Positions 17,301 through 64,000 of a stretch of 64,000 nucleotides of DNA are shown here, piece by piece. This DNA is from Octopus vulgaris. Lineage: Eukaryota. Location: NCBI GenBank assembly GCA_951406725.2, contig OX597824.1, positions 21,452,001-21,516,000 on the forward strand, in the 5' to 3' direction. The position numbers were made by a program. Each line of letters opens with the position of its first letter. Positions within the stretch are counted from its first letter, which is position 1.

Positions 17301-20300
17301 CAATGTGTTTTGTCCAACACAAATCGCTGTCGACAATAATGCTCAGGTCATGTACTGAAATAAATTAAGTCTAGGTAGTTGTTGATCTTAGTTCAGAGCC
17401 TGGCTCACTGGCAGTTATGATTATGAATGTTCCACTTGATTCAATCAGTGTGACTTCCTGCCCATAAAAATTAACATGCAAGTGGCTGAGTATTTCACAG
17501 ACACACTTACTCTTAATGTAGTTCTCAGGGAGATTGAGCATGGCACACTGAATATGACAAGGCTGGCCCATTGAACCACAGGTACAACTAAATTTTGCCA
17601 GCTGAGTGGACTGAAACAATATGAAATAAAGTACCTTGCTCAAGAGTGCAATGCGCTACTGAGAATTGAACTCCTATTGCAGAATTTGAATTCAGAACGT
17701 GAAGACAGACAAAACACTGCTCAGCATTTCACCTGGTGTGCAAACAATTCTGCCAGTTCACTGCTTTAGGAACATGAATTATTACCATGAAGTTTTAATG
17801 GAAGGCTTTGATTTAAATCACTTTCAAACAAGAAGGTTGCATCATAGAACCAGAGGCTGTGTCAGGTGGGTTGGTATCAAAAGGGTTAAGAGGGCATCTT
17901 TCAAGTGTTGCCAAGAACCATGAAAAGAATTCAGTTCATTCACATTAATTTTTCCATTTTTAAAAAATTATTATTGGAACCGAGGAGGAATGCAATAATG
18001 TCTAAATTACATAAATAAGTTTTGCATTATCTTTTGTGTTTGTACAGTCATTTGATAATCAAATTTCATCAATACCCATCTTAACGAATGAAGCTTCTTT
18101 CATCCTTTCCTTGTTCTTACAATTTATTTTTCTCTCCAACACACAGAGCCATTCTCTGTCTCTCTTCCCCACAAGCACACATACCACTTTCTCTCTTTCC
18201 CACACGAACACACACAGAGGAGGAGGAAAATGTATCCATAATTAATTGCTGTAAATTTATCCATTCATTACAATCTCAACTATCAAAGATTCTTTGTTGC
18301 ATTGTAATCATTACAGATCATTGCTTTTTAACTTTGGTGAATCGTTAATATTACCATTACTTAATATTCCTCTGCATTAATTACTTTTCAAAGTTATCCG
18401 CTATGTTTATTATATATTAACTAATAATGGTTCTGTTAAACAAATTAAAATTTTGCCAAGAAGAAAACATCTTCATATAAATTAAAGAATAAGGAATCGA
18501 AAATCTTTTGAGAAATCAATTTCTATTGTCATTCAATAATGCCTATTGATTAAATATTATTGATACTTATTCCTTTAAGACTGAATCTATTTTTAATAAA
18601 AAAGAAATAAAATTTTTAATAAAAAAAATTTTTTTTAATTTTTAAGAAAAAAAATTAAAAAATTTTTAATAAAAAAAAACTTTAATTTTTAAGAAAAAAA
18701 AACAATTTAAAAGATAAACATTTTCTTCTTTTGCTATTTTATAGTTAGAAGAAATTCATCGGCATCCCTGGGTAACAGCGTGAGTAGATATATATATATA
18801 TATATTTTTTAATTTTTTTTTCTGCTAATATTTATTAAAAAAAAAAAAATTACGTCTCTCCTTTTTTCAGTCAGTCACTTAAATTTAGCGAATTAAGCTC
18901 TGAGTTTATTGCTCATTTGTCAGTATTTGTACTTATGTAAACTGTTTCAATCACATTAAAAAACCAGGCTTGAAAGACACATATATATATATTACATAAC
19001 AAAGTTTGGTCACCTCCCCCACCTCTCACCAAAGGGATAAATTTATTATTTCCAGTCATTTTCAAATTTTAAGATAATTTCTTGCTTTCCTATGTTTTTA
19101 AAAAAATTTTCTTTGATTTCAATTCTTTTCTATTTTCTATTTTCTATCCCTTAAATAATCTCAAGATTTAACCATTTTTTTTTCTGAGTTTGAGACGTTT
19201 TTTTTTTCTTTAAGAACATAATATTTTTTTCTTTTGGTTACTTCCAAAGAATTTTCAATAGATACCTTTGATTCCTTGGTCTAAGTTTCCAGCTTCGATG
19301 TATTATTTTGATAAACATTTTAAAAGTGAATGCTACAATCAGAGGTTGTTAATACATAAGGCCCTATTTTTATAACGATTTAGTTATTTTTCACCTGTGT
19401 TATCAAAATAATTACACAAAACTGAATATGCATATAGGTGAAAAAAAGTTGAATGTAAATTCATCTTTTAATTCGGAGGTTTCCAAAAAAGATTTCTAAT
19501 GTTGATTCTTCATATTATACCGGTAGTTTACAGGCGTAAATTTGCGAAGATATGAAAGTAATACTTGTATATGATGTGTGGTGAATTTATGGAAAGAAGT
19601 TCCATAAAACTCATCAATTTAATTAAAAATGGAGAAAACAAGTTAACAGCTTGTCTTTTTCATTTTTAACTACTCCTTTCCATAAATTCACCACACGTGG
19701 AGGCACGTGGCTTAGTGGTTAGGGTGTCAGCATCATGAACGTAAGATTGTGGTTTCGATTCCTGGACCGGGCGACACGTTGAGTTCTTGAGCAAAACACT
19801 TCATTTCACGTTGCTCCAGTCCACTCAGCTGGCAAAAATGAGTAACGCTGCGATGGACTGGTGTCCCATCCAGCTGTGGAACACATATGCCATAGAAACT
19901 GGGAAACTGGGCCCATGAGCCTGGCTAGGCTTTAAAAGGGCGCATTTATTTATATATATATATAAAATTCTTTATATAGATCACGGTTATGTTATAATGA
20001 ACCATACACATTTTTCAAAATCGGATTTAATATATTTCATGGGGCAAATGTTATGAAGTTAAAATTACATTTTAACAAAAAAAAAACTACACCATTTCAC
20101 AAGTTTTATTCAGTATGTTGTTTTTTTATCTTCATTTTAGTTTCTTTTATACATGAAATGAAATTATGTTCAAACAAGTCTTATTTATTATATTTTTTGT
20201 TCATGAATCTATAATTTTGAAGTTTAAGTTCAACAGCTTAATTTCATTCTTGCAATTTTAATTATGCTGTCTGCATATTGAAAATAAGAATTTACTACAA

Positions 20301-23300
20301 TTATTGTCATTTAGGACAATCAGATATCGGCTGATATTTATCTTAAACCAATTGCACATATGCAGATATCATCATTGTTCGACCATGGTCGAGACAATGG
20401 AATTTACTATGTTACGCCAGACCTCACGGTCCATCATAGCATTACGGAAGTCCTGTTGCTGGATGCCTGTATCCCTGGAGATTACATCAGGGTAGGAGAG
20501 TGTGCGCTCTCTGGTATCGTGAGCAGATGGCTTCCAGAGGAGAAGAGTAGAAATTACGTCGTTTTCAGCTCTACAACAATGTCCAGCAAACTGGACTCTT
20601 CTACCTTTCAAAAGAGATGATACAGGTGGTAATTTCCCATATATTTGTACTTTGGTTGGATGACGCTTCCACGAGAGATTTTGAGCTCTCATAAGGAGGC
20701 GAGTGTAAGTTCTATCCAACTGCCTCTCAAGCTTCTTTGATGCAGATATACTACCAACTTTCTGGCTGGATTTTCCATTTTGCTAGATTAAGCGGTTACA
20801 TAATAGTAATTCTGACTCAACTTCTAGAAGACTGATGCCACACTATTATATTTTTGTTTCTGCTACTAAATCATCATGACACACCTTTGTTTATTCTCTA
20901 GAAACATGATATAAAGTTGGAAGCATGCTTCCAAACCTTCAACTGTAATAATATGAAGGCACAAAATATTTCAAACAAAACCTAAAGCTATGCACTAACT
21001 CCCTAACCATTCGGCCCCACCAGACTCTCTCTAGAAATACAACTGTGAAGGGCATATATTTATTTTCCCCCTCTTTCATGCTGAGATGCTCCGTTCTCTG
21101 CAGTGAAAGTAAGTTATCTATTATTAACTTGCTCTTCATTGAGGGAGGGTCCTTAGGGAGTTAGCACATGGTGTTAGATTTAGTTTTAAATATTTGCATC
21201 GTTATATTATTACGGTGAGGTGTAGCGAGAGTATGTTCCACTTTCATGATATGTTAACATGATATGTGAATAAATAAATGCATTGTCGGGAAGGTTTGGT
21301 AGTGAAAAGGCTTTTGATATTAATTGTGGGGAATTTCAGCTGAGCTTGCATAATTATATCCAGGATAAAAAAGGATACTGGATCATCACTTGCCAGAAAT
21401 TTGGCAGTGTACCTGAATGGAATGTACATAAATACATATGTACATATCATACATCAATGCATACATACATACAGACATACATACTCTTTACGCTTTTACC
21501 CTTTTACTTGTTTCAGTCATTTGACTGTGGCCATGCTGGAGCACCGCCTTTAGTTGAGCAAATCGACTCCAAGACTTATTCTTTGTAAGACCAGTACTTA
21601 TTCTATCGGTCTCTTTTGCCAAACCACTAAGTTACAGGGATATAAACACACCACCATCGGTTGTCAAGTGATGTTGGGGGGGACAAACACAGACACACAA
21701 ACATATACACACACATACATACAAACATACATACATATATATATATATATGACGGGCTTCTTTCAGTGCCCGTCTACCAAATCCACTCACAAGGCTTTGG
21801 TCAGCCCGGGGCTATAGTAGAAGACACTTGCCAAGGTGCCATGCAGTGGGAATGAACCCGGAACCATGTGGTCGGTAAGCATATAGCCACTCCTGCGCCT
21901 AAAGTCTCTTGAAAGTTGAAAAGAATACTTTTAACAGAAAAAAAACCCCAATTAAATGCTAGCATTGTAGTTGCAGTTGGGCCCCCTTAGTCTCTTAGTA
22001 ACTAAGACTTTTAGACCCAGTCCACCACTGTGTGTTTCTCCTAATCTACCTCTCTCTTTTTCTCAGTATTCTATGTTCTTGTTAGAAGATGCCTGTTAAA
22101 AGTGACTAGCACTATGACCCGACAATGCGGGGTCATAGTACTACTGCATGCATATACAGCTGCGTGCGTGCGCACATACACGCGAGTACTGTCCAAATCT
22201 CTGACCAATCACCATACAGCTAGCTGTCATTCAATTGGCATATCAAGTTTCGGGCATTTTGATTGGGTTTTGGATAGAAAATTCACAAAAAAGTCACTTA
22301 TATTGATTTTTTAATGGCTTTACGGGGTGACTGGGGAAATGTAAAGATGTACACAACCACCCTCGGACGGTTTTGAATGACCATAGAAAGTGTGAGCCCT
22401 CTAACTGAAAAATTGTGGATTTGTATAAAGGACACACACACAGACAGACATTTTGCCGTTTATATATATAGAGATGTACGAGAAGGCTTGAAAACTAGTT
22501 TGTTTCAAGTTTTTTATAAAGAAATGTCAAATAGTTTCAATTTGTACAAATCTGTTCTGATTTGCATCTGTTTTAAGCAGTTTATTGTAACAGTCCAAGT
22601 GTTAGAGGAGTTGTGGCCCTTGTTGTCATGGCAAACTAAATTACTTTGCATTTACATCTCTCCAAGTTCATATTTACATTAGTGTGTATATAGACATATA
22701 TACATGTGTGTGTGTGTGTGTATATATATCTAATGCAGGGGTTTATATTCTAGGTGTGTTAGGTGAGCCCTAAAAAGTTTTGATAAATAGGATAGATTTT
22801 CATTTTTGGATTTGGTTTACAAGATTCTTTATATGAGTTTGTGTGTTGAAGCATATTCTGTTGTGTTTGGGGAGAGTCATTTTCTTTTTGTGCCTTATAA
22901 TTTAACGCACTCACTGGTAAAATTTCCACTAATTCCTTATTTTTATTTTCCTAAAACTTTCGTTGCATCTTGCAACGAAAATTGAAAAGGTTACAAGACA
23001 CAACAAAAATTTTAGGAAAATAAATATAAGGAATTAGTGGAAATTTTACTGGTGAGTGTGTTAAATTATAAGGCACAAAAAGAAAATGACTCTCCCCAGA
23101 CACAACAGGATAGATTGTCTTTATGATAATTCTGTTGTTGCAATGTCATGATATAATCTGGTCATAATTTATTTTGAAATGCATGTCTACCTTACATTAT
23201 AGGAATGATGCATTTCTGCGAATATTAATGTAAAGTGGAAGTCCATAATGTTAAAACCATTCTCCTTAATAATTTCCATGTAATATGGACATCAATGGAA

Positions 23301-63900: not shown

Positions 63901-64000
63901 GGGTGTTCTACTTCCCTACTTCCAAAGAAGTGTGCTTTATCCCATGTGGAGGAATACACCCAGGTACTTTAACTATTAAAATAGCAGTATACAACACTGT

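What the first reader, a model, noticed from the sequence alone, without database searches (positions are those of the whole stretch)
18780..64000. Possible bank of phase-2 cassette exons in the >45 kb intron between the BRSK kinase domain and the UBA domain
Seen: the last kinase exon ends in phase 2 (GC|gtgagt) and I found no UBA exon in the next 45 kb. Four AG...GT-bounded segments (24169-24207, 27042-27086, 42869-42919, 49402-49437) are multiples of 3 and stop-free in phase 2; for two of them phase 2 is the only open frame. Each lies in a ~1-2 kb island without recognisable TEs in an otherwise TE-saturated intron. Known: SAD/BRSK kinases control neuronal polarity and synapse formation, and the kinase-UBA linker governs UBA docking on the kinase. 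Inference: a combinatorial, possibly neural, peptide-insert system tuning this linker. Caveat: I found these by eye, and pseudo-exons are common in long introns.
Basis: partly seen in the sequence, partly recalled or inferred. Interest (0 to 1): 0.8.

Follow-up and report, generated by a model that had tools for sequence, protein, structure and literature searches.

The report
Two real octopus BRSK cassette exons
Two of the four proposed mini-exons in this long octopus BRSK kinase intron are already in public gene models as optional exons that add a short basic peptide just after the kinase domain; the other two look like chance.

Summary
The window holds three C-terminal kinase-domain exons of an octopus BRSK/SAD gene. 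The intron after the last one (donor at 18779/18780) runs past the window end. Those criteria alone mean little. 363 sense and 411 antisense segments of 36-51 nt meet them, and no phase is enriched.

Two candidates are real. Segments 27042-27086 and 42869-42919 match residues 268-299 of the RefSeq model Octopus sinensis BRSK2-like X5 exactly. The second also appears alone in O. vulgaris X1. Other octopus models skip both. On a crude splice score they rank 2nd and 1st of the 363, and no antisense segment scores as well.

Segments 24169-24207 and 49402-49437 score at background level and appear in no protein I saw.

Together the two real exons insert 32 residues (net +7) between the kinase domain's end and the flexible linker to the UBA domain. 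I saw no reads, tissue data or cross-species DNA. A regulatory or neural role is inference. The kind of feature is ordinary, and the exons are already annotated.

The parts
13143..13211 (+). BRSK kinase-domain exon (69 nt, phase 0 to 0)
   Evidence: Read. tblastn to octopus BRSK proteins (E 1e-10).
15475..15621 (+). BRSK kinase-domain exon (147 nt, phase 0 to 0; AAG acceptor)
   Evidence: Read. 100% identical to Octopus and cuttlefish BRSK models.
18745..18779 (+). Last kinase-domain exon (35 nt). It ends with two carried-over bases, then a gtgagt donor.
   Evidence: tblastn 100% to residues 256-267 of P0026.
18780..64000 (+). Part of the long intron (over 45 kb). The next constitutive exon is not in the window.
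   Evidence: tblastn of P0026, P0022 and P0019 finds no linker or UBA exon in the window.
27042..27086 (+). It encodes P0026 residues 268-281 and shares the split codons on either side.
   Evidence: 100% tblastn match to O. sinensis BRSK2-like X5. Only open frame. Splice score rank 2 of 363. No upstream AG within 35 nt of the acceptor.
42869..42919 (+). It encodes P0026 residues 283-298 and shares the split codons on either side.
   Evidence: 100% match to O. sinensis X5 and O. vulgaris X1. Only open frame. Splice score rank 1 of 363; its donor ranks 3rd of 2683 GT sites.
27134..27139 (+). Single TGCATG hexamer 48 nt downstream of the 27086 donor. This is a weak lead for Rbfox-type regulation.
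   Evidence: Background is 40 copies in the intron, or 0.27 per 300 nt. One occurrence is not significant.
24169..24207 (+).
   Evidence: Acceptor is only in the top 33% of 2260 AG sites. Another AG lies 6 nt upstream. Rank 15 of 363, with 15 antisense segments as good. Found in no protein read.
49402..49437 (+).
   Evidence: Acceptor is in the top 14% of AG sites. Rank 9 of 363, with 10 antisense segments as good. Found in no protein read.

Best explanation
The window carries the 3' end of the kinase-domain coding region of an octopus BRSK/SAD kinase gene, followed by a very long intron.

Two short exons inside that intron, 27042-27086 (45 nt) and 42869-42919 (51 nt), are genuine alternatively spliced cassette exons. 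Both enter and leave in the same codon phase as the flanking constitutive exons, so each can be included or skipped without shifting the frame. Inclusion adds 15 and 17 residues: 32 in all, net charge +7, with no acidic residue. The insert sits directly after the last kinase-domain helix and before the flexible linker that leads to the UBA domain.

Inferred, not shown: the insert lengthens the tether between the kinase and its autoinhibitory UBA domain and adds positive charge to it. It could therefore shift autoinhibition, partner binding or localisation. I put this at about 0.35. It is about as likely that the exons are young, lineage-restricted and of little consequence.

The confidence given (0.8) is for the structural claim: two real cassette exons and two chance segments.
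For: - Exact matches (tblastn): window 27043-27087 equals P0026 residues 268-282, and window 42867-42920 equals residues 282-299.
- P0026 is RefSeq O. sinensis BRSK2-like X5. P0019, O. vulgaris X1, carries the second exon only. P0012 (O. vulgaris X2) and P0022 (O. bimaculoides X10) skip both.
- For these two segments, and only these two, the required frame is the only open one.
- They rank 1st and 2nd of 363 phase-compatible sense segments by splice score. None of 411 antisense segments is as good.
- Position: against mouse BRSK2 chain 4yom_B, P0026 residues 7-265 align to chain 13-271 and residues 304-372 to chain 277-345. The insert therefore faces a 5-residue stretch at the start of the linker.
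- This junction tolerates insertions elsewhere. Two unnamed BRSK representatives (P0126, P0129) carry low-complexity inserts of roughly 35-40 residues at the same place.
Against: - The only evidence of splicing is automated RefSeq gene models. I saw no reads, junction counts or tissue data.
- A search with insert words found only the two RefSeq clusters among proteins of 405-1292 aa and nothing among shorter ones. No independent transcript assembly confirms the exons.
- All 4 cuttlefish models, all 10 cuttlefish-like transcript assemblies and all 15 other invertebrate representatives read lack an insert here. The exons therefore seem restricted to octopus, which fits neutral young exons as well as a function. 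This absence is weak evidence, because only 90%-identity cluster representatives are visible.
- Wu et al. 2015 report that linker substitutions had little effect on basal activity (passages).
- The splice score uses recalled generic frequencies. One constitutive exon here (15475) has a modest acceptor score of 2.64 and a donor score of -1.49, so low scores do not exclude use.
Confidence: 0.8

Rival explanations
1. The two exons are spliced in, but as low-level noise or very young exonised intron sequence without a role. The annotation pipeline picked them up because a few reads supported them.
For: - No insert in 4 of 4 cuttlefish models or 10 of 10 cuttlefish-like transcripts.
- No relative of the insert peptide anywhere. 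The Atlas best score of 0.77 is in the noise range.
- The insertion site is a flexible linker where other lineages carry arbitrary low-complexity inserts, and where substitutions matter little.
Against: - The second exon appears in models from two separately annotated octopus assemblies.
- Both exons have the best splice scores among 363 candidates, and clean AG-free tracts upstream of their acceptors.
- Both preserve the frame, and only that frame is open.
Confidence: 0.4
2. One reading: a bank of at least four phase-matched cassette exons, all four candidates included, used in combination to tune the kinase-UBA linker in neurons.
For: - Two of the four are real, and three of their four combinations are annotated.
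- Candidates 1 and 4 have decent donors, in the top 0.7% and 2.9% of 2683 GT sites.
- A constitutive exon here also uses an AAG acceptor, as candidate 4 does.
- Hidden isoforms may exist. The P0026 cluster has 21 members that I could not list.
Against: - Candidates 1 and 4 rank 15th and 9th of 363, and 15 and 10 antisense segments score as well.
- Their acceptors are weak, in the top 33% and 14% of AG sites. Candidate 1 has a competing AG 6 nt upstream.
- Neither peptide occurs in any of the 33 full-length BRSK proteins read.
- Phase 2 is not enriched.
Confidence: 0.07
3. The inserts are artefacts of gene prediction and are never spliced into BRSK mRNA.
For: I saw only model proteins, with no experimental record. 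Searches of the protein collection found no transcript-derived fragment holding the insert.
Against: - Two separately annotated assemblies give the same exon with the same boundaries.
- The boundaries are canonical, high-scoring splice sites.
- To my knowledge (recalled, not checked here), NCBI's pipeline issues extra isoforms only with transcript support.
Confidence: 0.06

Closest known systems
RefSeq models O. sinensis BRSK2-like isoform X5 (P0026) and O. vulgaris BRSK2-like isoform X1 (P0019)
   Same: They contain exactly the peptides encoded by 27042-27086 and 42869-42919, at exactly this junction.
   Different: Nothing differs for these two exons. I could not tell which octopus species the window comes from.
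Mouse SAD-A/BRSK2 kinase-UBA structures 4YNZ and 4YOM (Wu et al. 2015, PMC4686854)
   Same: Same family and architecture. The octopus protein aligns at E 2e-177. The kinase domain ends at the same tryptophan, and a flexible linker leads to the UBA domain.
   Different: The mouse chain has 5 residues where the octopus X5 isoform has 38. The paper text has 0 occurrences of 'isoform'.
CaMKII variable linker, built from alternatively spliced cassette exons
   Same: It works alike in principle: optional short exons change the length and charge of a tether between a kinase domain and a regulatory module. The start of the abstract of PMC12474881, seen in the search listing, links Ca2+ sensitivity to linker length and to the position of charged residues.
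   Different: A different kinase family, a different regulatory partner (hub, not UBA), and many more cassettes. No activity data exist for the octopus inserts.
Lineage-specific inserts at the same junction in other BRSK proteins (unnamed representatives P0126 and P0129)
   Same: Extra residues directly after the conserved end of the kinase domain and before the conserved acidic start of the linker.
   Different: Those inserts are Ser/Ala-rich, low-complexity and longer. Whether they are optional exons is unknown, and so are the organisms.

Membership tests
BRSK/SAD kinase gene (AMPK-related) | Kinase domain followed by a BRSK-type UBA domain and a KA1 domain | tested here: met
   The window exons are 100% identical to octopus proteins that carry PF00069, PF21115 and PF21122. 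The best solved relative is mouse BRSK2 at E 2e-177. Only kinase exons lie in the window itself.
Frame-preserving alternative cassette exon | Canonical AG and GT boundaries, length 3n, open in the frame set by the flanking exons | tested here: met
   All four candidates meet it. So do 363 sense and 411 antisense segments of 36-51 nt.
Frame-preserving alternative cassette exon | Present in some products of the gene and absent from others | tested here: met
   Met for 27042-27086 and 42869-42919, at the level of RefSeq models: X5 has both, O. vulgaris X1 has one, and O. vulgaris X2 and O. bimaculoides X10 have none. Not met for 24169-24207 and 49402-49437, which occur in 0 of 33 proteins read.
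Frame-preserving alternative cassette exon | Spliced reads across both junctions | not testable with these tools
   No RNA-seq or cDNA resource was available. Searches for transcript-derived fragments found none.
Neural microexon programme | Length of about 3-27 nt (definition recalled, not from a call) | tested here: not met
   The two real exons are 45 and 51 nt.
Neural microexon programme | Neuron-specific inclusion | not testable with these tools
   No tissue data. The only hint is one TGCATG 48 nt downstream of the 27086 donor.
CaMKII-like combinatorial linker | Several cassettes used in many combinations, with a measured effect on activation | tested here: inconclusive
   Two cassettes, with 3 of 4 combinations seen in models. 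No activity data.

The most novel reading that the evidence does not exclude
The two exons are an octopod innovation under neuron-specific control, with an Rbfox-type site downstream of the first. They add a +7 basic module at the hinge between the SAD kinase domain and its autoinhibitory UBA domain. That would give octopus neurons isoforms with altered autoinhibition or altered targeting to membranes or vesicles.
Probability: 0.12. Interest if true: 0.55.

Novelty: already known. Interest (0 to 1): 0.3.

Why it matters
SAD/BRSK kinases set neuronal polarity and presynaptic organisation, and docking of the UBA domain on the kinase holds them inactive. An optional basic insert at the hinge could be a simple way for octopus to make kinase isoforms with different set-points. 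That is testable with existing octopus long-read data and a standard kinase assay.

As it stands, the result is a correct by-eye call of two already annotated alternative exons plus two false positives. It shows that frame and boundary criteria alone do not separate real short exons from the hundreds of chance ones in a long AT-rich intron. Adding splice-site strength and the 'only open frame' test did separate them here.

Tried and rejected
- **Structure prediction.** I ran it on P0026 with a 22-sequence alignment. Mean pLDDT was 40.2 and pTM 0.26, and even the kinase domain was below 50. The model is unusable, so I draw nothing from the helix it shows across the insert.
- **Representative search for a deeper alignment.** I ran it but did not use its 150 unnamed hits for a second fold, because some may be vertebrate or human. 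I fetched only two whose layout excludes human BRSK. The second fold job was not run.
- **ESM Atlas on the insert**. The best score was 0.77, which is noise.
- **Pfam on 8 long intron ORFs.** 0 families.
- **Rfam at gathering threshold and a tRNA scan of the whole window.** 0 hits each.
- **TE content.** Only repeats within the window could be measured.
- **Joined exon model.** Searches used one exon alone or the stored RefSeq protein.
- **Literature.** 'BRSK' with 'octopus' gave 1 paper, which was irrelevant. Two further searches gave nothing on an insert at this junction.
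Full report
**What the window holds.** It is 64,000 bases with no N and is AT-rich. On the + strand I found three exons of a BRSK/SAD kinase:
- 13143-13211
- 15475-15621
- 18745-18779

.

A search with the single exon 15475-15621 returned named BRSK models at 100% identity. They come from Octopus sinensis, O. 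vulgaris, O. bimaculoides and the cuttlefish Acanthosepion pharaonis. tblastn of three octopus proteins against the window found these three exons. It found no exon for the linker or UBA part, and no exon upstream of 13143. The intron after 18779 is therefore longer than 45 kb.

**The observation.** Each is bounded by AG and GT, a multiple of three, and open in the carried-over frame. For 27042-27086 and 42869-42919 that is the only open frame.

These criteria alone are met by chance many times over. Among segments of 36-51 nt in 18780-64000:

| Strand | AG..GT 3n segments | Open with 0 / 1 / 2 carried bases |
|---|---|---|
| Sense | 787 | 375 / 410 / 363 |
| Antisense | 819 | 385 / 405 / 411 |

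Nothing is enriched in the required phase or on the sense strand.

**The decisive result.** The RefSeq protein O. sinensis BRSK2-like isoform X5 (P0026, 738 aa) carries 32 extra residues directly after the end of the kinase domain.
- Residues 268-282 equal the translation of window 27043-27087, at 100%.
- Residues 282-299 equal the translation of window 42867-42920, at 100%.
- O. vulgaris isoform X1 (P0019) carries the second exon alone.
- O. vulgaris X2 (P0012) and O. bimaculoides X10 (P0022) skip both.

Candidates 2 and 3 are therefore annotated cassette exons, and three of their four combinations appear in public models.

**Splice-site ranking.** I scored every AG and GT in the intron with generic metazoan frequencies. 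These are recalled approximations, used only for ranking. The ranks below are among the 363 phase-compatible sense segments of 36-51 nt.

| Segment | Rank of 363 | Antisense (of 411) as good | Acceptor, among 2260 AG |
|---|---|---|---|
| 42869-42919 | 1 | 0 | top 3.1% |
| 27042-27086 | 2 | 0 | top 3.7% |
| 49402-49437 | 9 | 10 | top 14% |
| 24169-24207 | 15 | 15 | top 33% |

Candidate 1 also has a competing AG 6 nt upstream of its acceptor. In fairness to candidates 1 and 4:
- Their donors are good.
- The constitutive exon at 15475 also uses an AAG acceptor, as candidate 4 does.
- That exon scores only 2.64 for its acceptor and -1.49 for its donor.

A low score therefore does not exclude use. 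Neither peptide occurs in any protein I read.

**How widespread the inserts are.** Of 32 stored BRSK proteins over 400 aa that matched the junction motif, 2 carry an insert, and both are Octopus. P0098, read by eye, also lacks one, which makes 2 of 33. One Priapulus model (P0028) has an aberrant junction.

The sequences without an insert include 4 of 4 cuttlefish models and 10 of 10 unnamed transcript assemblies. Those assemblies have 0-5 mismatches to the cuttlefish protein against 5-16 to the octopus one.

A search with P0026 residues 262-304 found only the clusters of P0026 and P0019 among proteins of 405-1292 aa, and nothing among shorter ones. Absence elsewhere, and absence of candidates 1 and 4, is therefore weak evidence.

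**Where the insert sits.** Against mouse BRSK2 (chain 4yom_B, E 2e-177), P0026 residues 7-265 align with chain residues 13-271, and residues 304-372 with chain residues 277-345. The 38 octopus residues between face 5 mouse residues at the start of the linker.

In passages of Wu et al. 2015 (PMC4686854):
- The linker is described as flexible.
- UBA helix alpha3 packs on kinase helix alphaC and holds it in an inactive position.

The combined insert has net charge +7 and no acidic residue. Two unnamed BRSK representatives (P0126, P0129) have Ser/Ala-rich inserts of roughly 35-40 residues at the same junction. This site tolerates extra length in other lineages too.

**Mechanism.**
- Shown: two optional, frame-preserving exons, their exact position in the protein, and their composition.
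- Inferred: inclusion lengthens the tether between the kinase and the autoinhibitory UBA domain and adds positive charge to it. This could loosen or re-aim docking, or add a binding or phosphorylation site.

I give a real modulatory role about 0.35. The rival reading, that these are young exons of little consequence, is about as likely. In favour of the rival are the lack of any relative of the peptide, the absence from cuttlefish-like sequences, and the tolerance of this site. One TGCATG lies 48 nt downstream of the 27086 donor (background 0.27 per 300 nt). That is only a lead for neuronal control.

Repeats found within the window cover 20.7% of the intron and simple repeats 3.8%. Stretches free of both, 300 bp or longer, make up 28,660 of 45,221 bp. 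Lying in such a stretch does not mark an exon. No TE library was at hand. Eight long intron ORFs gave no Pfam family.

**Context from papers.**
- Zolotarov et al. 2022 (PMC9699675, passages) sequenced full-length mRNAs from O. vulgaris tissues. [quoted passage not shown] Their isoform table is a supplement I could not open, and it may already show the tissue pattern of these exons.
- 'BRSK' with 'octopus' gave one irrelevant paper.
- Searches on SAD kinase, UBA and splicing and on BRSK1/2 splice variants showed nothing about an insert at this junction.
- The CaMKII variable linker is the nearest well-studied analogue in how it works (listing and start of abstract of PMC12474881).

**Verdict.** The idea of a larger bank is unsupported, and phase enrichment is absent. 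A neural or regulatory role is untested.

**What led nowhere.**
- The structure prediction failed (mean pLDDT 40.2).
- The Atlas search gave noise.
- The Rfam and tRNA scans were empty.

Noticed in passing
window 25491-25520, 34761-34793, 36625-36639, 23520-23591, 63928-63963, 49953-50030: Other sense-strand segments that are 3n, open in the required frame, and have acceptor and donor scores of 1 or more on the crude matrix. None occurs in any protein read. 49953-50030 is a CA/TG microsatellite.
   Followed up: partly
window 27059-27064: A GTAAGT lies inside the 45-nt cassette exon, read from the sequence printed. Using it as a donor would give a 17-nt exon that shifts the frame. No evidence that it is used.
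   Followed up: no
window 4644-4783, 5560-6000, 9232-9707, 21594-21881, 30543-30853, 33594-33790, 35437-35674, 36523-36838, 38444-38602, 57726-58013: About ten diverged copies (72-86% identity) of a SINE-like element of roughly 300 bp, on both strands, often next to microsatellites. No tRNA or Rfam match.
   Followed up: partly
window 52101-52732, 40722-41054, 2007-2389, 43411-44130: Tandem arrays: a 184-bp unit x3.4, a 167-bp unit x2, about 380 bp of (TTA)n, and about 720 bp of imperfect (AT)n.
   Followed up: no
proteins P0026, P0022, P0015-P0025, P0044, P0057, P0064, P0098, P0101 (outside the window): Comparing isoforms shows other optional segments of mollusc BRSK: one of about 25 residues after the UBA domain, one of about 16 residues before the autoinhibitory region, and two similar ~20-residue units near the C-terminus. 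The first two recur in bivalves and gastropods, so they are older than the two octopus exons studied here.
   Followed up: no
proteins P0126 and P0129 (unnamed representatives): Both carry long Ser/Ala-rich inserts directly after the end of the kinase domain, at the same junction as the octopus cassette exons. The organisms are unknown, and so is whether the inserts are optional.
   Followed up: partly
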